DNA of 63,529 bases, the filler included. It is 10 parts of 10 records of this genome, joined end to end, with 100 filler letters (N's around TTAATTAATTAA, not from the genome) between each part and the next. Parts side by side here need not be neighbours in the genome. Positions count along the whole stretch, not along the records: positions 32,190 to 39,834 come from SRR31147125_104662; 9 more parts are not named here. One strand, written 5' to 3'. The position numbers and the translations under genes were made by a program. The notes below the pieces were generated by a model, which searched no databases, had not been told where the DNA came from, and saw only the letters and a list, made by a program, of their open reading frames with translations. Numbering within the stretch: position 1 is the first letter of the stretch; the number at the start of each line of letters is the position of its first letter. Of the stretch, positions 872 to 56,674 are shown one piece after another.

Positions 872-3800
872 TTACTGACAGAACTCGGGAAGAGACTGAA
901 CGTTCACACTCTCCTCTCTGAGATACCTGATACCGATCACCGCCGCCTGAGCGGCACTGGTCGTGGTCGTATAAGGAACTTTCCGCCGGACCGCCTCGGT
1001 CCGGATATCCTCATCCTGAATCTGCGAGAACCGTCCCAGAGGCGTATTGATCAGAAGATTGATCCGTCCGCTGCGCATATGATCCACTACATTGGGATGG
1101 CCTTCGTGAATCTTCAGGATGACCTCGGAAAAGATCCCCTTGCTGTAGAGATAATCCGCCGTTCCGCGGGTGGCTGCAATCTCAAAACCCATCTCGATCA
1201 GATCACGGATAATGGGCAGGACGGTTTCCTTGTCCCGGTCGTTGACCGATACGAAAACCCGGCCCTTTACAGGAAGGCAGGACCCGACTGCGGCCTGAAC
1301 CTTGGCAAAGGCTTCCCCGTAGGATTCACCGATCCCGATGGCCTCTCCCGTAGACTTCATTTCCGGACCCAGTACGGGATCGAGCCCCGTAAACCGGTCG
1401 AAAGAGAATACAGCCTCTTTGACAGCCCATCCGGTCCGGCAGTATCCCTGCCCGACTCCGGTCTCATCGGTCAGCCCCTGCTCTTTCAGAGAGATGCCGT
1501 TCCAGATGCGGGCCGCCGCGTTGATCAGATTGACTCCCGATGCCTTTGACAGGAAAGGAACCGTCCGGGAGGCCCGGGGATTCACTTCCAGAATGTACAG
1601 GACATCGTCCTTCACGGCAAACTGGATATTCAGGAACCCCTTCACCTGGAACTCCCTGGCGATGGAAACGGCGGCAGCCGCCATCTCCTCCAGAATCTCG
1701 GGGGTGGACTTATAGGGAGGGAAAACACAGGCTGAATCGCCCGAATGGATTCCCGCCGCCTCTATGTGCTGCATGATGCCGCCGACATAGACGTTCTCCC
1801 CGTCGGAGATGGCATCCAGGTCGTACTCGAAAGCATCTTCCAGAAACTGATCCACCAGAACAGGACGCGTATCGGAAATGGGAACCCCTTTGCTGAGGAA
1901 CAGCTTCAGCTCCTCCTCCGAATAGGCGATAAACATGCTCCGGCCGCCCAGTACAAAGGAGGGTCTGAGGAGTACGGGAAATCCGATGTCCCTGGAGAAC
2001 TGCTCCACTTCTTCGGGATTCACGGCACTCTTGTTGTCCGGCTGTTTGAGACCGAGCTTGTCCATGGCGGCGGAGAAGAGTTTTCTGTCTTCCGCCTTAT
2101 TGATATCGTCCACAGACGTACCGACAACCTCGGCGCCCGATGCCTCCAGCTCCTCCACCATATTGAGGGGAGTCTGTCCGCCGAGCTGAACCACAATCCG
2201 GTTCACCTGCTCCTTCTTCATAATCTGCCTGACGCTTTCCGCCGTCAGGGGCTCCATATAGAGGCGGTCTGATATATTGAAGTCGGTTGATACCGTCTCG
2301 GGATTGGAATTGACCATAACGGTTTTATATCCCTGTTCCCGGAGACTCAGGGAAGCCATGGTACAGCAGGTATCGAACTCCAGTCCCTGCCCGATCCGGT
2401 TGGGACCCGAGGCCAGAATGATGATACCTTCGTCCCCGGTGGGGGTTCCTTCATCGACCTCACCCCAGGTGGAGTAGAAATAGGGCGTTTCGGCGTTGAT
2501 CTCGCCGGCACAGGTATCGACAAAGTGATAGGAGGGCAGGATATCCGCCTCCTCCCGCGCAGATGACACCTCAGCGACGGTCCGGCCTGTCAGGCCCGCA
2601 ATCCTCTCGTCCGAAAGGCCGGCCTGCTTCGCATCCAGGAGCAGTTCCGGTCCCACCTCATCCGATGCGGCAAGCTTCTTCTCCAGAACCGCCATGGTTT
2701 TCATCTGGTACAGGAACCAGCTGTTGAAACCGGTCATATCCGAAAGGACCTGCAGGTCCTTGTCCGGATTCCGTTTGAGCCAGGTGTAGGCTCCCCAGAA
2801 GCCTCCGGGGATGGGCGGTCGTCAGGACCGTATCCAGCTCGCTGTCACTGATGCCCGACAGCTCCGTCAGTCCGTCAAAACCGGTTTCCGATGCCCGGAT
2901 AGCCTTGTTCAGAGCTTCCAGGGCAGTCCGGCCGAGGGCCAGAGCCTCTCCGACGGACTTCATCTGGGTTCCCAGTGCCGAGTAGCCCGTAGGGAACTTT
3001 TCCATCTCGAACCGGGGCACCTTGACGGCACAGTAGTCAAGAGCCGGTTCAAAGCAGGATGCGGTCTTGCCGGTTATCTCATTGGTGACTTCATCCAGAG
3101 TATACCCTACCGCCAGCTTGGCGCTGCACCGGGCAATGGGAAATCCCGTAGCCTTGCTGGCCAGGGCGGAAGAACGGGAAACCCGGGGATTCATCTCGAT
3201 GATAATCATTCTGCCCGTATCGGGCTTGACGGCAAACTGCACATTCGAGCCCCCGCAGTCCACTCCGATAGCCCGGAGTATGTCGATGGCCGCGGTTCTC
3301 ATGACCTGATACTCCCTGTCCGACAGGGTCTGCACCGGCGCAATGGTTATACTGTCTCCCGTATGAACACCCATGGGATCGATATTTTCGATGGAACAGA
3401 CGATGATGGCATTGTCCGCCCGGTCTCTCATAACCTCAAGCTCGAACTCTTTCCAGCCGATCAGGGACTCTTCGATCAGAGCCTCCCCGACAGGGCTTTC
3501 CAGAAGGGCCTTTTCCACAAGTTCCTTCAGCTCTTCATGAGAGTAGGCAATGCTTCCGCCCATACCGCCCAGGGTAAAGCTGGGGCGGATAACCAGAGGC
3601 AGCCCCACCTCCTCCTCCAGCCGGAGAGCGCCGGCGACGGTTTTCGTCGCGATGGAACGGGGAGATTCCAGTCCCAGGCTCTCCACGACTTTCTTGAACT
3701 CTACCCGGTCCTCGGCTTTGTGAATGGAATCGATCCGGGCGCCGATCACCTCGACATTGTATTTGTCCAGAACACCCTCGGCCGCCAGATCCAGCGTCAG

Positions 3801-4091
3801 ATTCAGAGCCGTCTGGCCGCCCATGGTAGACAGCAGGGCATCGGGCCGCTCTTTGCGGATGATCTCGGTCACGTATTTGACCGTCAGCGGCTCCACGTAG
3901 ATCCGGTCGGCAATCCCCGGTGTCGTCATCACCGTGGCCGGATTGGGATTGACCAGAATGACCTCGTATCCCTCTTCTTTCAGAGCCTTTACGGCCTGGG
4001 TTCCCGAATAGTCGAACTCACAGGCCTGACCGATGATAATCGGCCCTGAACCGATTATCAGGATTTTATGAATATCTTTTCTGGCGGGCAT
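872..4091 (-). CDS. carB: Carbamoyl-phosphate synthase large subunit (one apparent frameshift in a C4 run near 2793-2796)
   Basis: [62 protein letters not shown]-terminal MGS domain; removing one base joins ORFs 2658-4091 and 872-2737. Confidence 0.95.
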
Positions 4092-5242
4092 TATTTCTCC
4101 TTCACTGTTTCAAGAAAGGCGTCAAATATCCAGCTGGAATCCACCGGCCCCGGTGCCGCTTCAGGATGAAACTGAACACACAGAAGCTTCTTTTCCTTCC
4201 ATTCCAGCCCTTCGACCGAACCGTCGTTGGCATTGCGGAAACGGACGGTCACTCCATCGGGCAGCGATTCCTCCCGTACGGCAAAGCCGTGATTCTGGGA
4301 AGTCACAAAAACCCGTCCTGATTCTTCATCCCTGACAGGATGATTGCATCCGTGATGACCGAACTTCATCTTGTAGGTCTCGGCACCTATGGCCTGACCG
4401 ATAATCTGATGCCCCAGACAGATCCCCACCAGGGGATATTTTCCCAGGACAGCGGAAGCCAGATCGATCTGGTGTTTCAGCACCGCCGGATCGCCCGGTC
4501 CGTTGGAAAGAAAGACACCGTCGGGCGAAATCCTGTCGATCGCATCCATATCCGCATCAGAAGGAAGAAGGGTCACACGGCAGGACCGGGTTTCCAGCTC
4601 CCTGAGTATGTTCGCCTTGATGCCGCAGTCAATCAGAGCGATATGCGGACCGCTGCCCTCAACCTCATGGATAACCCCGGTACCGACGCCTCCGATAAGA
4701 TTCTGCCCTTCCATGGAGGGCTGTCCCTTCAGAAAGGATACGGTCTTTTCCCGGTCCCCGTCGGTCCAGCCGGCCTCATCGTCGGCTGGCCGGACAATCA
4801 TGCCGTTACAGCTTCCCAGATCCCTGAGACGCAGGGTGAGGCTTCTTGTGTCAATTCCTGAAATCCCGGAGATACCGTTCCGGACCAGATATGCGTGAAG
4901 AGGGGTTCGCCCCTCAGGAACCGGACCGTCGTACACGGATCGGACAATAAACCCGGAGACTTTTACGTCCTTCCGGGATTCCGCTTCCGGTCCGTTCTCG
5001 GACCACCGGTCGTCGGTTCCGTAATTTCCAATGTGAGGATATGTCATGGTAACAAGCTGTCCGGTATAGGAGGGATCAGTCAGTATTTCGTGATACCCGG
5101 ACATTCCCGTATTGAAAACCACTTCTCCGAAAGGTAAAACAGGTTCCTCAACCAGAGACGAAGCTCTGGGAGCCGATTCTCCAAACCCCCTGCCGGAATA
5201 AACAGTACCGTCTTCCAGCACGAGGAAAGCCTTATCCTGCAT
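4091..5242 (-). CDS. carA: Carbamoyl-phosphate synthase small subunit
   Basis: [37 protein letters not shown]; start MQDKAF after GAGGGG. Confidence 0.95.
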
Positions 5243-5255
5243 AAAGCACCCCTCA

Positions 5256-5294
5256 GATAAATATTTATACCGATTCTGTAAATAAATATACATC
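5256..5294. promoter_or_regulatory. Tandem ARG boxes (ArgR operator) upstream of carA
   Basis: Cores TAAATATTTATACC (5258-5271) and TAAATAAATATACA (5279-5292) match TGMATWWWWATKCA at 11/14 and 12/14, with the canonical 21-bp period. Confidence 0.7.
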
Positions 5295-5313
5295 ACAAAA
5301 TCCGATAGGTTAT

Positions 5314-5342
5314 AAAAAAACCGGCTTAATTACCAGCCGGTT
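5314..5342 (-). terminator. Intrinsic terminator after the tRNA
   Basis: AACCGGCT-8 nt-AGCCGGTT stem followed by a T tract on the minus strand. Confidence 0.7.
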
Positions 5343-5396: not shown

Positions 5397-5496
5397 NNNN
5401 NNNNNNNNNNNNNNNNNNNNNNNNNNNNNNNNNNNNNNNNTTAATTAATTAANNNNNNNNNNNNNNNNNNNNNNNNNNNNNNNNNNNNNNNNNNNN
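5397..5496. other. Artificial contig spacer (first of nine)
   Basis: N44-TTAATTAATTAA-N44; also at 12392-12491, 18467-18566, 24896-24995, 32090-32189, 39835-39934, 45113-45212, 50667-50766, 56522-56621. Confidence 0.99.
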
Positions 5497-12380: not shown

Positions 12381-12491
12381 GGGCCCCTCCCNNNNNNNNN
12401 NNNNNNNNNNNNNNNNNNNNNNNNNNNNNNNNNNNTTAATTAATTAANNNNNNNNNNNNNNNNNNNNNNNNNNNNNNNNNNNNNNNNNNNN

Positions 12492-18466: not shown

Positions 18467-18566
18467 NNNNNNNNNNNNNNNNNNNNNNNNNNNNNNNNNN
18501 NNNNNNNNNNTTAATTAATTAANNNNNNNNNNNNNNNNNNNNNNNNNNNNNNNNNNNNNNNNNNNN

Positions 18567-24895: not shown

Positions 24896-24995
24896 NNNNN
24901 NNNNNNNNNNNNNNNNNNNNNNNNNNNNNNNNNNNNNNNTTAATTAATTAANNNNNNNNNNNNNNNNNNNNNNNNNNNNNNNNNNNNNNNNNNNN

Positions 24996-32089: not shown

Positions 32090-33277
32090 NNNNNNNNNNN
32101 NNNNNNNNNNNNNNNNNNNNNNNNNNNNNNNNNTTAATTAATTAANNNNNNNNNNNNNNNNNNNNNNNNNNNNNNNNNNNNNNNNNNNNCTCCTCCTCCT
32201 CCTCCTCCTCCTCTCTCCCCTTGTGCATGCTCAGGACTCGTCCTGTGAGTATCGCTTCTTCGCCAGTGGTGAGACCAACATTGAAGAGTTCCTGCACTGT
32301 CTGGACGAACAGAAGCAAGTGGTACCCACAGCACAGCACACGAGCCATCCCTCTATCCACTCACTCCCTTTGCAGATCGCCTCGAATGACGTTGTCACTG
32401 CATTGGCACGCCACGTTCCCTCTCCAACTCCTCAGTACGTGTCCCTCGCCCTCCCGTCTCCTCTCCTCACGAATCCTTCTACAGATGTCCACCGTACGCA
32501 GGTGAACTTCCCAGTGGACCCACACTCCCTGTGCTTGGGTGCGGTGGTGATGCATGTCGAGGCGTGGTGTTGTGGGGGTGGTGACGAGAATGCAACAAGA
32601 TCTCCTGATCTTCGCCAACGCATTGAATTCCATGAGATGCCACGTCGTGTGTTCCGTACACCCAAATCGGAGGAGGGTACGGGTGATGGGGATGGTGGGT
32701 GATCCCGTTCTGATCCACAACCCCCGTGGGAGAAAGACGTGGCACCCTTGGCGCCTGAGTTAGGGGCCTGTGAGATGTGTCAACTCCTTGTTTTGTTTAC
32801 ACGCAACGCTCAGATCGCACTTTCGGTAGGTTGTTGATGACATCCGTCCTTCTTCTCTGGTTCTCATGTGAATCGCATCCAGACATGGGATGTGTGTGGT
32901 GCAGAGGAACGTTCGATGATGTGTGAACGAACCAATTTTCTCGTACACGGGGATGCGATGGGATCCCGTGTGACGTCAACCCTTCTTCATCACGCCGATC
33001 GACACATTGCAACGGTCGGTGGGAATGGAATTCTTTCTTTGAGTGGAGGGGTTCCTCATCTATCCAGACGAACAGTGTCAGCGGATCCTGGCCGAAGGAT
33101 GCCGTCCAGAGGTTGCCCAACTCTTTCGCGACACGATAAGCTCTACGGCTCTTTGCTATGCACGTGACGCCCAAAGCCATGCAATCCAGCCCCCTACGCG
33201 ATGTTCTCCTGGTGTGGTGTGCCAAACGTTGGGCCACTGCGTCACCTCGGAGGTCGCATGAATAACACCTTTTATCC

Positions 33278-34215
33278 TTATACCGGTTGAGTTGTGTCCT
33301 GTTTGCTTTCCTCTGGATCGCTTGTGGTTGTCGATCTATTGCTCATGGGTCAGTCAAATCAAAGACGTACGTTATGCACGCACCCCAAAGCTTTCACGAC
33401 TTGTGCTTGTTGGGCAACAAGGGTGTTGAACACAATCATTTGCTCCTTCACGCGCAGACACAGATGATACTGATGGAAGAACGCAGGATTCTGTTCTTCC
33501 AGTTTTTGCCATACAAGTGATGTGAATCCGGGTTCAATTTGTGCGTGATAATGGAGGGTGGCAACCGCCTCGTCTCGGTTCATGAATAACTGAAGGCATT
33601 GCTCCACAAGGGACTGGACCTGGTACAGAAGGCACTCAGAACCGAAGAACTGAACAGCGCCACAAACGGAGAATGCACCCTTTGAATCTCCTCACAGCTC
33701 ACCCTGTGGTTCTGGGGAAGTGCAGGGGGTGCCTAGGGAAGGACGAACAAGCAAACAAGCAGAAATGAGCTCGCTCTCCAAAGGAGATGAATTGCTCTGG
33801 ACGTACTGCATAGGGAGGCACCATACGGGGATAGGGAACAGGATACACCTGATCATTCTGAATGCCATGAACACACGAGCGGGATCGAGTGCGGGCAGGC
33901 GTAACGTACAAGAGAGAGTCCACTGGTCCGTCCTTGGGAGTGTGCGCCGTCAGTTGGGTTCACGGCTTGTGGTGATGTTCCTGCCACAGCCACTGCCTCG
34001 ACTTCCTCCGCCCCCGCCGCCACCGCCACTGCCCCATCCCCCTCACCCCGTGCAGAATCCCTCCCTGAGTTCCCCGTTGAGCTTTCCTCAGCTTCACACG
34101 CAAGGGCACGCGGGGAGGATAAGGCAAGAGGGGGAGTGGATAAGATGGGAGAGGATTCATCCTTTTGTTGCGTCGTCTCCGTTGGGATTCCTCCTCCCCT
34201 CCCCTCTCCCATCAT
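33278..34215 (-). CDS. Eukaryotic TIGR01589/PF09713 (A_thal_3526) domain protein, spliced; 5' end uncertain
   Basis: Spliced RVSCEEIQR|VQSLVEQCLQLFMNRDEAV...IEPGFTSLVWQKLEEQNPAFFHQYHLCLRVKEQ; four GT-AG introns; last exon DTTQPV*. Confidence 0.8.
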
Positions 34216-36343
34216 ACATCCACATCCGCCTCCCCCTCGTTGTCCCCATCATCGTCATAAAATTCACGATCGTCATCCACCCGTCGATCTAACTGACGTT
34301 CTGATGCATCATCATCATCACCATCACCCTTGTGAACAAGACGTCCCTTCGTGGAGTACAGCAACGTACGGCTCTCTCGGACATCGGGATCTTCCTCATC
34401 GTCATCATCGGAAAAATAGGTATCCGGGGGTACCTTGGGGTTGGGATGGAACAACAATTGTTGAGTAAGCCAACAAATCGATCGATGAGACGTCATACCT
34501 CCTGCATGGAAACACCCGGCGCGCCTGGCAAATTCCTCAGGTTCTCTAAAATCTTGATCCTAAGCCAGAGTTAAGACGGTGCTTCACAGGAAAACCATCA
34601 TCGCACTTGTTCTTCTCAAGGTAGTCTGTGGTGTTAAGGTTCTCCATGTTGCTGGCCTGTGGAGAGAGAACAAACCACCGTGAGGAGATCCAAAGTCTTT
34701 GGAATCGATCCCTCCAGCCTACCTGGATATGAAGCTGGAAGTCTGGCCCGAAATACTCAAAGAAATCATTGTAGGGAAGGTCATTCGACAACTCCGAGCC
34801 GAGAAGGACACCCGTCTCGAAGGCCCAGCATCGTGCCACGTTGCGGATAGTGTACCCTCCACCACCAAGCACCAGCACAGGCACGCCGAAACTCTTCACA
34901 AAGCGAACACATTCGCCGTGTCCACGCAACGTGAGGTTGAAGCAGCCGAGTCGATCCCCCGAAAGAGAATCGGCTCCACACTGTAAGACAATCGCACCCG
35001 GACAGTACACTTCCATTACTTTTTCGATTACCTAGTTTGTACACCATTGGGGAGGAAGGAGACACACACACACACACACGTACAGGCTTAAAGACCGACT
35101 CATAATTCTTGTCGTCAATCCCATCCACGAGAGGGAAATTCACGGCATAGTGTTTCCCACGGGATGCTCCAATGTCCTGGGGAGATAGATGAGCGGAGCA
35201 GGGGAAGGAAAGGAAGACGCACTCGAATATCCCCTGTTCCCGGAAAGTACTCCCCGAACTTATGGAAGGAGACCGTCATCACTCGCTCGGTCGTGTAGAA
35301 GGCCTCTTCGACACCATCGCCATGGTGGATATCGATGTCAATGTACAAGACACGCGAATGATATCTACAGAGGGAGGGAGGGAGGGTGGGAGGGAGGGAG
35401 GGAGGGATGGGTGAGGGAGGCGCAGACGAGAGGGGAGACGTACTTGAGAAGTTCCAGAATTCCCAATACGATATCGTTAATATAGCAAAACCCGGATGCT
35501 TCAGACTTCTTTGCATGGTGTAGACCACCCGCCCAGTTGATGGCAATGCTTGCCAGGCCTTGATTCAGTTTCACAGCACCATCTGGAGCAAGACGTTCGT
35601 ATCCATACGTACGCTCGTAGCCCCCTCCAGGACGAAACGTACCCACAGAACCGCCCGCCGAGATCTGACAGAACTGGTACATGCCATCGAACACAGGGCA
35701 ATCCTCTCCCACGTTGACTGTGCCCAGAACGTCACCGTCTTACATGGAACAAGAACCAACCCTTCTACGTACAGCGCTGAAGTTGCCGTTGATATTCATG
35801 CATGTTGTCGGGGGTGATGACCCGCAAGAAGTTGACGTAGTCGTCTGCATGAAACCGAGTCAACTCTTGGTCTGACGCCAGATGAGGTCGCTGGGGAGGT
35901 CATGCGTGCGTAAGGAGAGTTTTCGCGGGCTGGCGGGCGTACGTAGACTTCCATCTTCTTGTACACGCCGTAGTTGAGAAGAAGGTTGTGGGTCATGCGA
36001 ATACGATGGGGCTTCATGGGATGACCTTGCCCGTAGTAGTAGTTTCCCACGTCGCCTGGACGGTGATGCAGTGAGTGGACGGGGACGGTGCGTGTCCGTT
36101 CACCCACAAGGCGTGTAGGACACTTCCAACATGCAAGAGACACGGTACGACCCTCGCGTGGGTGGTGTGCAGGCGATTCGCCACGGCCATTGGCCCGCTC
36201 GCCCTCCCCGTTCGTTCGCCCTCGTTTTCCTCCCCCTCCCCCTCCCCCCTCCCCCGCCACCCCTCCCCGCCTCCTTCGCGAACAGACTCCTCTTTGTACG
36301 TACCATCGTAGAAGTAACAGACCTGTGGCTTTCGTGATCCCAT
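34212..36343 (-). CDS. Class I histone deacetylase (RPD3/HDAC1-like), 12 exons, about 430 aa
   Basis: [43 protein letters not shown]. Introns: 36056-36303, 35891-35942, 35718-35772, 35583-35642, 35365-35443, 35177-35222, 35032-35083, 34657-34722, 34560-34606, 34434-34498, 34301-34369; exons sum to 1293 nt. Confidence 0.95.
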
Positions 36344-36428
36344 GACACCACCAGGGGAGGGGAGTGTTGGATCTTTTTTTGTATTGATGGTGCTTTCGTT
36401 CTGATGTACGCACACGTGCCATCCTCCC

Positions 36429-38922
36429 TCATACGTTGGAATTGTAAGACTTGGCAAACTTGGTTGCGTCGACTGAATTCTTCTCATCCACATCCCATGG
36501 TCGAAAATCACAACTTGCACAACGTTGGACGGCAATCTCATAGTTGAGGATACGGGATAAGACTTGCAGGGGAAAGGCGACGGCATAGCTTGGATATTGC
36601 ATGTAGAGAAGATGTCGATGACCCGTGCCAACACAACTGTGATCAAAGAACGAATGGTTGTCCTTCGCAAACGTGTCCAGAAGATAATGCACAGCGCCAT
36701 CAATGGCCCGCTCGGTAACATTGAATCCAGCCAACTTGGCCTCCCAAAGTCCCATGAGGGCCCAAGATGTCTGAGACGGCGTGGATACGCCTCGGCCCAT
36801 CCATACGGGATCATCGTAGCTCCTGGGAGCCTCTCCATACCCACCATCTGCGTTTTGTACCTGGGGATGACGACTGGTGTCATCGAGGAAACATGTTCTT
36901 CAATCCTCCATCACGCACAGATTGGAGCCAGACAACTGTTTTCTGAAGCCATGGCTCTGTGTGTTTCAGCTCACCCACGCGTGCCAGTCCCACCAAAAGC
37001 GGTCCTGTAGCGTACAGGTAGTTGATTCCCCAGCGTCCGGTAAAGGATCCCACACTCTCTTGTTGGTTCTTGACATACTGCATACGAGAAAGAATGAAGT
37101 GATGAAGAGGAAATCCACGCGACAAACCTTCAGAGCCCTGCTAACAACACTTGGATAGGCCTCGTGCATTCCTGTGATTCCCATTGCTTCCAAAATATGT
37201 GCCGTCAAGTCAACACAACTCTCATCAAAGAGTTCTGCTGAATCAGTGAATTGACGTGCCATGAACTGAGGGATCGCGCGTGAATCACAACTCTTTTTCT
37301 TTCCTGGGACACGTACCTTAATGATCCAGCTTCCATCACGATCACGATCAAAGGCGGGCCATCCCCCATCCGGATTTTGCATTGTGGCAATCCATTTCAT
37401 GGCATCTTCCATTTCTTTCATCATCCCTGTTGAGATCCAGTATGTGTGTTACTCCTTTCTCTCTTTCCTCTCTTTCCCCATCGTACACCCGCCGGTCGTA
37501 CCCATGGAGTGGAAGAACATCATGAGCATACTTGTGTCATCGGTATCGGGTGCATACCAGAAGTCGATCCCAAAGCCAATGGCATCATTGGGAGAACGAT
37601 TCTTCTTGATGTATTCAACCGTCGACTGAAATTCCGTGGGAGACTTTCCCGCTTCCAGCAGTGCATTCGAAATAAGGAGTGTATCCCAATAATGTCCATC
37701 ATCCAGAACGCCGCGATAGGCAGCCGGTCCCGTGTCAAAGTAGTAGTAATCCACACGTTGAAGACCCCTGAGACAGGCATCCTGGAGAGTACGATCAAAT
37801 CCTGGATCAATGAACTTGGCAAAGCGCATGCGGTAATCCAAGATCGACATGATGGAAAACAGAGTTGATACCGTGTACGCTCCAAAAAGCCCAGCAGGTT
37901 GTTGAATCTCAAGCATTTTGAGAATTGCATTCTTCTCGGGTCCGGTGGGAGGAGAATTCGATGGTACGGTGGACATGCGTGGCATGTTCTTCGGTGCTGT
38001 ATACTTGTAGCCATTTGAGAGTTCATCAAGTCGGAAATGCTCTCCTGTTGAAAAGATTAGGTGGGGGTGGAGATCTCTTCCATCCGTACCGAGATTCACC
38101 GAGACCTTAAAATGTCGAAGGTAGGAGATGGGAAGCATGTGCGGATAGACCCACTGGGCCACCATGTGTTGTGCGTGGGCGATCTTCCCCAAGCCATGGT
38201 CCTCGAAGATAAAAAGAGGGATCTTGGACATGAAGTCCCACGAGACCACTCCAAAGAGGGAGAGCCACGCCTTGTTCATAGTGCACGTGCGGGCCAATCC
38301 CCCTGTGTACCCCTATCAGGCATCCATCCATCCTCTATCCCTGTGTGTGTGTGTATCGACCCTATCGCATACGTGCAAACACGGACAGGACACACCCCGT
38401 GCCCATCGCACGTGCCCACCCACCTCGTGAAAGAATGAATTCCTTGGCTCGTTCCAGAGATGCATTCCATGCATTAGTACCCAAGTGTTGTGCTCGTGCT
38501 TTGAGATACCAGTAGTTGGAAAGAGTGTGATCGAACCAGCCCGAATCCTCGTTGAGATCGTCCACACCCGTCCAGGACCCATCCGGAAATTGGGCCTCAC
38601 GTAGAGTCCGTACCAAAATGTCGTGATCAAGATGACTGGTGTGCTCAAGTTTCACTTCAAGTCCCTCCGTCAGCCACTCGTGAATGAGTGCGTAGAGACT
38701 GATGAAGCTTGTTCCGAGAAAGGAAGGCATACACCAGTAGGTACCATTGATACGGAGTTCCATTGCATTGTGCGATGCTTGTGTGACCACAGACTGTAAG
38801 GTATCCACGGAGACAGACGTAGCCGACGGAGGACAATCCGTAGCACCATAAATCTTGGATGGAATTCCTCCTACAAGGAGAATGAACAGGAATACACACG
38901 ATCGTTGTGAAGAGTTCCACAT
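36429..38922 (-). CDS. Squalene-tetrahymanol cyclase-like triterpene cyclase, 7 exons, about 697 aa
   Basis: DxDD motif YAPDTDDT; QW repeats QFPDGSW, QNPDGGW, QNADGGYGE; GRWGINY; STPSQTSWA. Introns: 38303-38423, 38045-38089, 37427-37501, 37266-37316, 37078-37127, 36861-36918; exons sum to 2094 nt. Confidence 0.88.
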
Positions 38923-39192
38923 GACGCCAGATGGGGAGGTGGGAAAGGAGGGCCACGTGCGACAGGGACACCGAAACCAGCAGGCACGTGACAAGACCTT
39001 TCACAAAAATTATGGGATTATGGGACACGATCTCCAAGGATCACCGCCACACGACCACCACCACCACACCACCACCACCACGAGACATGCCGAACCAATC
39101 CTCCACTCCATGAGAGAAACGATTGATCACCAGGAGAATGCAATCCTGGACAGAGAGAGAGAATTCCTTTTTCCTTCTCTGTCGGCGGTGGG

Positions 39193-39834
39193 ATGTCCGG
39201 TCGTTCGCCTAGTCCCGTTCCCCGTGGACATCGAGATGAATCCCCACCTCTTCGTGAGAGGTCTCGTTCACGCTCACGTTCTCCACCTCCTCTTCGTCCT
39301 ATCTTTGTGGGTGGTTTCGATCCCTACACCGAGGTGCGTGACCTAGAAGAACTCTTCAGCAAATATGGCCATGTGAACCGTGTTGGTACGTGAGAGGAGA
39401 ACACCACTTCTTCCATTCAACGTACGTGTGTGGCGTAGACATGAAAGTTGGCTACGCTTTTGTTTTCATGGGAGACGGAGCGGAACGTGCTGTTCGTACC
39501 TTGGACCGTACGGAGTTCGGACGAGACTATCGTCGGCTGAAGGTGATGGAGTTCTGCCCCCCTTCCCCTCCTCTCTCCTCCCCTTCTACGCCACCCATAC
39601 CTCACCCAATCCATAGATTGAATTTGCTCGTGGAGATGGAAGCATCAAGCGGTGCGTTCTTCCTCACACGTTCCCGTACCAACACGTAGTGGTGTATGTA
39701 GACGTGAACAACAACGGAGGGATGTTGTGAACCGTACCCCTACCCCTACCCTCTTTGTTGTGGGCTTTGATCCATTCCGCACACGAGAAGGAGACCTGGA
39801 GGACTTCTTCAGCAAGTTCGGTCGCATCATACGC
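39193..39834 (+). CDS. SR splicing factor with two RRMs, resembling the plant RS31/RS40 subfamily; spliced, 3'-truncated
   Basis: RPIFVGGF...RV|DMKVGYAFVFM...RRLK|IEFARGDG...PTPTLFVVGFDPFRT; three GT-AG introns; N-terminal RS tract. Confidence 0.85.
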
Positions 39835-39936
39835 NNNNNNNNNNNNNNNNNNNNNNNNNNNNNNNNNNNNNNNNNNNNTTAATTAATTAANNNNNNNNNN
39901 NNNNNNNNNNNNNNNNNNNNNNNNNNNNNNNNNNTT

Positions 39937-45112: not shown

Positions 45113-45212
45113 NNNNNNNNNNNNNNNNNNNNNNNNNNNNNNNNNNNNNNNNNNNNTTAATTAATTAANNNNNNNNNNNNNNNNNNNNNNNNNNNNNNNN
45201 NNNNNNNNNNNN

Positions 45213-50666: not shown

Positions 50667-50829
50667 NNNNNNNNNNNNNNNNNNNNNNNNNNNNNNNNNN
50701 NNNNNNNNNNTTAATTAATTAANNNNNNNNNNNNNNNNNNNNNNNNNNNNNNNNNNNNNNNNNNNNTTTTTTTGAGTTGCCAGCCGAGAGCGCCAGGCTG
50801 GCGCTAAAAGGGAGTCGTTTTCCGCAGAA

Positions 50830-56521: not shown

Positions 56522-56674
56522 NNNNNNNNNNNNNNNNNNNNNNNNNNNNNNNNNNNNNNNNNNNNTTAATTAATTAANNNNNNNNNNNNNNNNNNNNNNN
56601 NNNNNNNNNNNNNNNNNNNNNGGTCCTGAACACCGGGTGGCATCCATCTCCCTCTCCTCTATTTTACACTGTAA

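What the first reader, a model, noticed from the sequence alone, without database searches (positions are those of the whole stretch)
36429..38922. Complete intron-containing squalene-tetrahymanol cyclase (STC) in an unidentified eukaryote
Seen: six GT-AG introns join fragments into an uninterrupted ORF of about 697 aa. It has a signal/anchor-like N-terminus, QW repeats and YAPDTDDT. Established: DxDD marks squalene (oxygen-independent) cyclases, whereas oxidosqualene cyclases have DCTAE. STC makes the sterol surrogate tetrahymanol and is patchily spread by lateral transfer among ciliates and low-oxygen eukaryotes. From recall, the segments NYWYLK, VAQWVYPH, DGHYWDTLLIS and DFWYAPDTDDT resemble Tetrahymena THC1 more than bacterial SHC. 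Inference: this eukaryote, sampled with anaerobe-like bacteria, can build membranes without oxygen and may be an unreported STC-bearing lineage. The introns match those of its neighbours, so this is a resident nuclear gene and not bacterial contamination.
Basis: partly seen in the sequence, partly recalled or inferred. Interest (0 to 1): 0.85.

Follow-up and report, generated by a model that had tools for sequence, protein, structure and literature searches.

The report
Spliced tetrahymanol-cyclase gene, unidentified protist
A short piece of DNA from an unidentified single-celled eukaryote carries an intact gene with six introns for the enzyme family that turns squalene into tetrahymanol, a sterol substitute made without oxygen; it is a new and rather divergent example of a known kind of gene.

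Summary
On the minus strand, 36429-38922, seven exons joined across six GT-AG introns (121, 45, 75, 51, 50, 58 nt) give a 697-aa class II triterpene cyclase. Contigs of a public run from the same sample skip exactly these six introns.

The protein has DTDD. It also has the histidine that marks squalene-tetrahymanol cyclases (STC) where hopene cyclases have Phe601. It keeps 76 of 77 family-conserved columns.

In trees it lies inside the eukaryotic STC clade (100/100) with Stygiella, Paratrimastix, Mastigella, Anaeramoeba, Neocallimastix and Brachionus. It is apart from bacterial SHC, SqhC-like and OSC rows. No relative exceeds about 44% identity.

The window is ten unrelated contigs joined by N spacers. 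Only 32190-39834 belongs to this eukaryote. That contig also holds an HDAC1-like gene, an SR-type RRM gene and an A_thal_3526 gene, all with the same short introns.

The organism stays unidentified. The product, an anaerobic lifestyle and absence of sterol genes could not be tested. Verdict: a new member of a known kind, of moderate interest.

The parts
32190..39834 (.). The eukaryotic contig (7645 bp, GC 0.528). It is bounded on both sides by N44 + 12 nt + N44 spacers that separate it from unrelated contigs.
36429..38922 (-). STC gene from ATG to stop: 7 exons, 6 introns, 697 aa
38424..38922 (-). Exon 1 (499 nt). It holds the start codon and the N-terminal hydrophobic signal/anchor-like segment (residues 9-27 = 38842-38898).
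38303..38423 (-). Intron 1, 121 nt, GTGGGT..CAG
38090..38302 (-). Exon 2 (213 nt)
38045..38089 (-). Intron 2, 45 nt, in frame, GTACGG..CAG
37502..38044 (-). Exon 3 (543 nt). It holds the catalytic DTDD motif (residues 404-407, 37536-37547).
37427..37501 (-). Intron 3, 75 nt, GTACGA..CAG
37317..37426 (-). Exon 4 (110 nt)
37266..37316 (-). Intron 4, 51 nt, GTACGT..CAG
37128..37265 (-). Exon 5 (138 nt)
37078..37127 (-). Intron 5, 50 nt, GTTTGT..CAG
36919..37077 (-). Exon 6 (159 nt)
36861..36918 (-). Intron 6, 58 nt, GTGCGT..CAG
36429..36860 (-). Exon 7 (432 nt including the stop). It holds GTGH, with His635 (36618-36620) aligned to Phe601 of Alicyclobacillus acidocaldarius SHC.
36372..36428 (-). 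At least 57 nt of 3' untranslated sequence, present in the spliced X1 contig
34430..36343 (-). Neighbouring HDAC1/RPD3-like gene. Its ATG is at 36343, 85 nt downstream of the STC stop. It has at least 10 short GT-AG introns, mostly with GTACGT donors.
33335..33806 (-). Neighbouring gene with an A_thal_3526 (PF09713) domain; three introns are skipped in X1 contigs
39193..39834 (+). Divergently transcribed SR-like gene with two RRMs, cut by the contig end. Its ATG lies 270 nt from the STC ATG, and three GT..AG introns are skipped in X1 contigs.

Best explanation
This is an intact, spliced nuclear gene of an unidentified microbial eukaryote. It encodes a squalene-tetrahymanol cyclase of the eukaryotic STC clade.

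Proposed mechanism (inferred from the family). The enzyme is held at a membrane by an N-terminal signal or anchor segment. It binds all-trans squalene, protonates a terminal double bond with the middle Asp of DTDD, drives a cation cascade that closes five six-membered rings, and quenches the cation with water to give tetrahymanol (gammaceran-3-ol). No oxygen is needed, so the cell gets a sterol surrogate without squalene epoxidase or OSC.

Shown here: the gene structure, the existence of the spliced form, family and clade membership, and conservation of catalytic and family-specific residues.

Inferred: the product, the membrane location and the physiological role.
For: - Gene model and reading frame: 697 aa with no stop after removal of six GT-AG introns. 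All six junctions are reproduced by a contig of run X1, while X2 contigs of the same sample keep introns 5, 3 and 2.
- Pfam: the SQHop_cyclase_C domain scores 76.2 and 43.2 bits on two exon ORFs (cut-off 26.1). The N domain scores 22.8 and 17.5 bits on single exon ORFs.
- Specificity of the middle region: the 287-aa middle ORF finds only 118 proteins at E<=1e-3 among 1,835,955,588 representatives. The best is the Stygiella incarcerata STC, at E 5e-45 and 41% identity.
- Score gap: a profile of 31 family members scores 11 STC-like rows at 653-829 bits, and the next row, an SHC cluster, at 463 bits.
- Trees: the window lies in the clade of all named eukaryotic STCs. Support is 27 rows at 100 in FastTree on 172 rows, 23 rows at SH-aLRT 100, 18 rows at 100 and 18 rows at 100/100.
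- Diagnostic His: present in 17 of 17 eukaryotic rows with that column (window included), 18 of 18 other STC-like rows and 0 of 10 SHC rows (8 Phe, 2 Leu). It aligns to Phe601 of PDB 1GSZ/2SQC. The legend of additional file 1 of Takishita 2012 names this His as the STC mark.
- Conservation: the window keeps 76 of 77 columns that are >=90% conserved in 35 STC-like rows, including all 10 family-specific ones.
- Product in the same clade: tetrahymanol was found by GC-MS in Stygiella (then Andalucia) incarcerata, a member of this clade (section read).
Against: - No product assay exists.
- The protein is at most 42-44% identical to any relative and sits on a long end branch (0.76-0.94).
- One invariant Gly (35 of 35 rows) is Asp at residue 391.
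- No strict QW motif is present.
- The library type of X1 is not on record and the tool guesses DNA, so that the spliced form is mRNA is an inference.
- The 5' end (38808-38922) is not covered by the spliced contig, so the start codon rests on the first in-frame ATG and on the homologues' N-termini.
- The His mark is shared by bacterial STC-like proteins whose products are unknown.
- The bootstrap had not fully settled (correlation 0.981).
Confidence: 0.8

Rival explanations
1. It is a genuine STC-clade cyclase, but in this divergent lineage it makes another squalene-derived product, such as hopene/diplopterol, a gammacerene or a partly cyclised triterpene.
For: - Identity to characterised-clade members is only 38-42%.
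- An invariant Gly is Asp at residue 391.
- A preprint on triterpenoid cyclases reports that squalene cyclases are not very specific and that product ring number is labile (passages read).
Against: - All 10 family-specific conserved columns are kept, including the His at the Phe601 position.
- The window nests among STCs of organisms in which tetrahymanol was measured or the enzyme is so named.
Confidence: 0.12
2. It is a decaying or inactive gene copy (pseudogene) that merely keeps an open frame.
For: One substitution at an invariant Gly, and a long end branch.
Against: - The frame is open over 697 codons across seven exons.
- 76 of 77 conserved columns are kept.
- A fully spliced form is present in run X1.
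Confidence: 0.05
3. It is a bacterial SHC/SqhC gene, or an assembly chimera that places a bacterial cyclase next to eukaryotic genes.
For: - The window is full of bacterial genes.
- The STC-like family has bacterial members in Bdellovibrionota.
Against: - The bacterial genes lie on other contigs behind N spacers.
- The cyclase has six spliceosomal-type introns that are skipped in X1 contigs.
- Its intron donors and lengths match the HDAC gene that starts 85 nt downstream.
- It lies in the eukaryotic clade, not with the Bdellovibrionota or SHC rows.
Confidence: 0.02

Closest known systems
Squalene-tetrahymanol cyclase of Stygiella (Andalucia) incarcerata (UniRef H3K1P0; P0003)
   Same: - It is the best hit of the exhaustive search, at E 5e-45.
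- Same clade, and a weakly supported sister group together with P0005 (93/62).
- Both have DxDD, GTGH and an N-terminal hydrophobic segment.
- Tetrahymanol was shown in that organism.
   Different: - Only 37.8% identity over 625 aligned positions.
- The window protein is 697 aa against 655 aa and has a longer C-terminal tail.
- The Stygiella sequence comes from transcripts, so its introns cannot be compared.
STCs of Paratrimastix pyriformis (P0037), Mastigella eilhardi (P0022), Anaeramoeba flamelloides (P0053, named 'sporulenol synthase' by its source) and Neocallimastix spp. (P0014 cluster)
   Same: All lie in the same 18-row clade at 100/100, and all have the His and DxDD.
   Different: Identity is 34-39%, and the branching order inside the clade is unresolved.
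Tetrahymena thermophila STC (THC1), the founding member
   Same: Same family by the literature. Takishita 2012 places ciliate, excavate, fungal and animal STCs in one clade with 100% bootstrap. Its expression in yeast gives sterol-independent growth (title and start of the abstract only).
   Different: Not compared here, because no fetched sequence carried a Tetrahymena name.
Squalene-hopene cyclase of Alicyclobacillus acidocaldarius (PDB 1GSZ, 2SQC, 3SQC)
   Same: Same superfamily and substrate class. The C-terminal exon aligns to residues 527-624 at E 3.9e-15. It shares the DxDD (via the A. sacchari row).
   Different: - 24-27% identity to SHC rows.
- His in place of Phe601.
- A separate clade behind a long branch.
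- The role of Phe601 in stabilising ring cations is recalled and comes from no call.
STC-like proteins of Bdellovibrionota (L001 Bdellovibrionota bacterium FG-1; L002 Oligoflexia MAG)
   Same: Same STC-like family (36 rows, 100/100), with the same His and DTDD and an N-terminal signal-like segment.
   Different: They are intron-less genes on compact prokaryote-type contigs, lie outside the eukaryotic clade and are 36.6-37.4% identical.

Membership tests
Eukaryotic squalene-tetrahymanol cyclase (STC) clade | Two-domain class II triterpene cyclase (Pfam SQHop_cyclase_N + SQHop_cyclase_C) | tested here: met
   - C domain: 76.2 and 43.2 bits on two exon ORFs (cut-off 26.1).
- N domain: 22.8 and 17.5 bits on two exon ORFs (cut-off 26.2). 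Each of these ORFs holds only part of the domain.
- The spliced protein aligns end to end with 8 homologues.
Eukaryotic squalene-tetrahymanol cyclase (STC) clade | DxDD proton-donor motif of squalene (not oxidosqualene) cyclases | tested here: met
   DTDD at residues 404-407. D-x-D-D is present in all 46 non-OSC rows, and the OSC row has SDCT at that place.
Eukaryotic squalene-tetrahymanol cyclase (STC) clade | His where SHC and OSC mostly have Phe (position 608 of STC in Takishita 2012, additional file 1 legend; = Phe601 of A. acidocaldarius SHC) | tested here: met
   His635 in GTGH. Counts are 17 of 17 eukaryotic and 18 of 18 other STC-like rows with His, and 0 of 10 SHC rows. I read the legend but could not see the supplementary alignment itself.
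Eukaryotic squalene-tetrahymanol cyclase (STC) clade | Branches inside the monophyletic eukaryotic STC group | tested here: met
   An 18-row clade at 100/100 and SH-aLRT 100 under LG+C20 PMSF. It includes rows named Stygiella, Paratrimastix, Mastigella, Anaeramoeba, Neocallimastix and Brachionus. No row named as a ciliate was in the set.
Eukaryotic squalene-tetrahymanol cyclase (STC) clade | Product is tetrahymanol | not testable with these tools
   Needs expression and GC-MS.
Eukaryotic squalene-tetrahymanol cyclase (STC) clade | QW repeats of triterpene cyclases | tested here: inconclusive
   0 matches to a strict QW pattern and 5 distinct loose Q-x(2-5)-G-x-[WFY] sites. The patterns were written from recall.
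Bacterial squalene-hopene cyclase (SHC) in the strict sense | Groups with bacterial SHC and has Phe at the 601 position | tested here: not met
   Separated from 10 SHC/SqhC-like rows by branches with 100/100 support. It has His, not Phe, and 24-27% identity.
Bacillales sporulenol synthase (SqhC)-like cyclases | Groups with Bacillales SqhC-type sequences | tested here: not met
   The Rossellomorea and Paenibacillus rows form their own clade on the SHC side. Their naming as SqhC-like is my inference; their sources call them squalene--hopene cyclase.
   The window has DTDD. The single OSC row (Fistulifera cycloartenol synthase) has SDCTGE there, is 22% identical and served as the outgroup.

The most novel reading that the evidence does not exclude
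The gene may mark a eukaryotic lineage not yet known to carry STC. It is at most 44% identical to anything in about 15 billion predicted proteins and absent from the JGI metagenome contigs. That lineage would be a further independent recipient of the laterally spreading STC gene. In the same trees the whole eukaryotic STC clade nests within a family whose other named members are Bdellovibrionota, so predatory bacteria of that phylum could be the long-sought donor pool.
Probability: 0.3. Interest if true: 0.55.

Novelty: new member of a known kind. Interest (0 to 1): 0.35.

Why it matters
Tetrahymanol lets eukaryotes keep sterol-like membrane function where oxygen-dependent sterol synthesis fails. 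STC is a textbook case of eukaryote-to-eukaryote gene spread. Most known protist STCs in the set used here come from transcript data, for example the eukprot rows. This locus shows a genomic copy with six introns set among housekeeping genes, so the gene is fully domesticated in its host. It is also a divergent sequence that can help resolve the poorly resolved STC tree. It does not change the picture of what STC is or does.

Tried and rejected
- No whole genome is held for the window, so OSC, squalene epoxidase and rRNA could not be sought. A tblastn of one OSC and one STC against the window hit only this locus, which says nothing about the organism.
- Rfam and tRNA scans of the window found nothing.
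- No RNA holder is listed for the contig.
- My first splice model used a GTCTCG donor for intron 2 (61 nt) and broke the frame. A second had an off-by-one donor. Both were corrected.
- Organism identification failed. The HDAC model (366 aa) is 82% identical to Heterolobosea sp. BB2 and at most 79% to the other 119 hits. In a 38-row tree it does not join BB2 with support (the 38 rows were chosen from 120 hits).
- The A_thal_3526 ORF points only to clusters that are mostly Streptophyta, which is a lead and no placement.
- A likeness of the RRM gene to plant RS-type SR proteins is my recollection and was not tested.
- The scan of JGI metagenome contigs with exon 3 gave 1 relative among 255 pattern matches, at 41% identity. 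It lies on a prokaryote-type contig.
- The careful tree under the mixture model did not finish in 468 s. I used the quick mixture trees and a careful LG+G4 tree instead.
- Earlier notes of this scan held nothing on this genome, sequence or 'tetrahymanol'.
- Structure prediction and complex prediction were not run, because the spliced protein cannot be handed to those tools.

Full report
What the window is. The 63,529-base window is not one piece of DNA. It is ten segments of 5.2-7.6 kb with GC from 0.41 to 0.59, joined by identical spacers of N44 + 12 nt + N44. The finding lies in segment 32190-39834 (7645 bp, GC 0.528). The bacterial-type genes that fill much of the window lie on other segments, so they are not neighbours in any physical sense. 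They include a GGDEF/EAL protein, a PBP transpeptidase, a Mur ligase, a LacI regulator, an aldehyde:ferredoxin oxidoreductase and a flavodiiron-type protein. No whole genome is held for the window.

The observation. Stop-to-stop ORFs on the minus strand between 36429 and 38922 match the squalene-hopene cyclase N and C domains of Pfam. Seven exons are joined at GT..AG boundaries: 38922-38424, 38302-38090, 38044-37502, 37426-37317, 37265-37128, 37077-36919 and 36860-36429. The introns are 121, 45, 75, 51, 50 and 58 nt. Intron 2 is in frame and would pass unnoticed in an ORF scan. Its 15 codons fall in a gap in all 8 of 8 aligned homologues. My first two attempts at this intron were wrong and were corrected.

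Independent support for the splicing. Two coded runs of one sample hold parts of the contig. Laid on the contig, run X1 has a 2036-nt contig that covers 36372-38807. It skips 58, 50, 51, 75, 45 and 121 nt at exactly the predicted junctions, with CT..AC on the + strand. Run X2 has short unspliced pieces across introns 5, 3 and 2.

X1 contigs also skip introns in the other three genes of the contig, with the polarity that fits each gene's strand. X1 has no or little depth over intergenic bins and over the long first HDAC intron. The library type of X1 is not on record and the tool guesses DNA. I infer that it is cDNA-like, because the alternative is intron-less DNA copies of four adjacent genes. 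Both runs may come from the sample that gave the window, so this confirms the junctions, not the organism's distribution.

The protein. DTDD is at residues 404-407 within YAPDTDDT. A hydrophobic stretch at residues 9-27 resembles the N-termini of the homologues. There is no strict QW motif, and there are five loose QW-like sites.

The C-terminal exon aligns to residues 527-624 of Alicyclobacillus acidocaldarius SHC (PDB 1GSZ, 2SQC, 3SQC). This puts His635 of GTGH opposite Phe601. The legend of additional file 1 of Takishita et al. 2012 says that STCs have His at 'position 608' where most SHC and OSC have Phe.

In my 47-row alignment, His stands there in 17 of 17 eukaryotic STC rows that reach the column, in 18 of 18 other STC-like rows and in 0 of 10 SHC rows (8 Phe, 2 Leu). 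The window keeps 76 of 77 columns that are at least 90% conserved among 35 STC-like rows, including all ten that are specific to the family. The one miss is Asp for an invariant Gly at residue 391.

Relatives. The 287-aa middle ORF found 35 long proteins by word search. The best were 39-40% identical, among them the Stygiella incarcerata STC. The exhaustive HMMER scan of 1.84 billion representatives found only 118 proteins at E<=1e-3, with Stygiella STC first at 5e-45. Thus this region is specific to a small family and does not reach ordinary SHCs.

A profile of 31 members separates 11 STC-like rows (653-829 bits) from the best SHC cluster (463 bits). Cluster look-ups named Paratrimastix pyriformis STC, Mastigella eilhardi, Anaeramoeba flamelloides and Neocallimastix species among the relatives. 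Two Brachionus proteins were named.

No relative exceeds 42% identity over the full alignment, or 44% over trimmed columns. The JGI metagenome contigs hold one relative, at 41%.

Trees. I built four trees.
- FastTree on 172 rows: all fetched proteins of 540-820 aa (171 of the 233 then held) plus the window.
- A quick LG+C20 PMSF tree on 50 chosen rows.
- A quick tree of the same kind on 47 rows, made by dropping 9 near-duplicates and adding 6 named bacterial proteins translated from loci.
- A careful LG+G4 tree on the same 47 rows (its bootstrap was not fully settled).

All four place the window inside the clade that holds every named eukaryotic STC (100, 100, 100 and 100/100). That clade lies inside a wider STC-like family (100; 99; 98; 100/100) that is separated by a long branch from bacterial SHCs, two Bacillales rows and the OSC outgroup. 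Inside the eukaryotic clade the window joins Stygiella STC plus an unnamed EukProt protein only weakly (93/62), and the order of lineages is open. The careful mixture-model search did not finish.

Surroundings. The contig is gene-dense.
- An HDAC1/RPD3-like gene starts 85 nt downstream of the STC stop on the same strand (ATG 36343). It has at least ten short introns, six of the nine modelled with GTACG[TC] donors.
- An SR-like gene with two RRMs is transcribed divergently from 270 nt upstream.
- A gene with the A_thal_3526 domain lies further downstream.

STC intron donors (GTGGGT, GTACGG, GTACGA, GTACGT, GTTTGT, GTGCGT) and intron lengths match those of these neighbours.

Who is the host? This stays unresolved. 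The HDAC model is 82% identical to Heterolobosea sp. BB2 and at most 79% to the other 119 hits, but the tree gives no supported sister. Heterolobosea already include an STC bearer, Sawyeria, so even this weak hint does not point to a new lineage.

Known and new. STC is documented in ciliates, Piromyces, Sawyeria, Andalucia/Stygiella, Trimastix/Paratrimastix and Alvinella (section read). It is shown in trees or tables for Anaeramoeba and anaerobic ciliates (passages read). Its sufficiency for sterol-independent growth of yeast is reported (title and start of the abstract). This locus is therefore a new, divergent member of a known kind. What it adds is a genomic, intron-bearing copy with confirmed junctions.

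In passing, the wider family includes intron-less genes in Bdellovibrionota genomes. These sit outside the eukaryotic clade and share the His. Two searches of the paper library found no paper that links tetrahymanol cyclases to that phylum. Published trees place STC near Firmicute SHCs.

Noticed in passing
window 1-63529 (spacers at 5397-5496, 12392-12491, 18467-18566, 24896-24995, 32090-32189, 39835-39934, 45113-45212, 50667-50766, 56522-56621): The window is ten unrelated contigs joined by N44 + 12 nt + N44 spacers. 'Neighbours' across a spacer are not linked, and co-occurrence with anaerobe-type bacterial genes says little.
   Followed up: yes
L001:2998-4884 (Bdellovibrionota bacterium FG-1) and L002:311-2023 (Oligoflexia MAG): Two Bdellovibrionota genomes carry intron-less STC-like genes (tblastn E 2e-111 and 3e-97; the next bacterial locus is at 3e-54). 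They have the STC-type His, DTDD and a signal-like N-terminus. They fall in the STC-like family outside the eukaryotic clade. They could be candidate donors of the eukaryotic STC, and no paper linking the two was found.
   Followed up: partly
P0010, P0021 (Brachionus calyciflorus, B. plicatilis) and unnamed relatives P0006, P0007, P0009, P0013, P0016, P0017, P0019: Rotifer proteins annotated as squalene-hopene cyclase or terpene cyclase sit inside the eukaryotic STC clade and carry GTGH. This suggests that an animal lineage holds an STC-type gene.
   Followed up: partly
window 36343-36431 and 38922-39193: Gene spacing is very tight. There are 85 nt between the STC stop codon and the ATG of the next gene on the same strand, and the spliced STC contig runs to within 28 nt of that ATG. 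A further 270 nt separate STC from the divergently transcribed RRM gene.
   Followed up: partly
window 33359-33691 (-): An ORF with the 'plant protein 1589' domain (A_thal_3526, E 1e-22) lies on this protist contig. The nearest Atlas clusters are mostly Streptophyta.
   Followed up: partly
window 38045-38089; 35583-35642; 34657-34722: Three in-frame, stop-free introns (45 nt in STC; 60 and 66 nt in HDAC) leave ORFs open. ORF-based gene calling would insert 15-22 spurious residues.
   Followed up: yes
window 37584-37586 (residue 391 of the STC model): Asp stands where all 35 other STC-like rows have Gly, in an N-G-G type turn just before the DTDD region. The effect is unknown.
   Followed up: no
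window 872-5329 (-), a different contig: Carbamoyl-phosphate synthase small-chain/GATase and large-chain domains lie in three consecutive ORFs on one strand. The large chain is split into two overlapping ORFs (2658-4109 and 872-2821), which could be a frameshift, an intron or a fusion gene.
   Followed up: no
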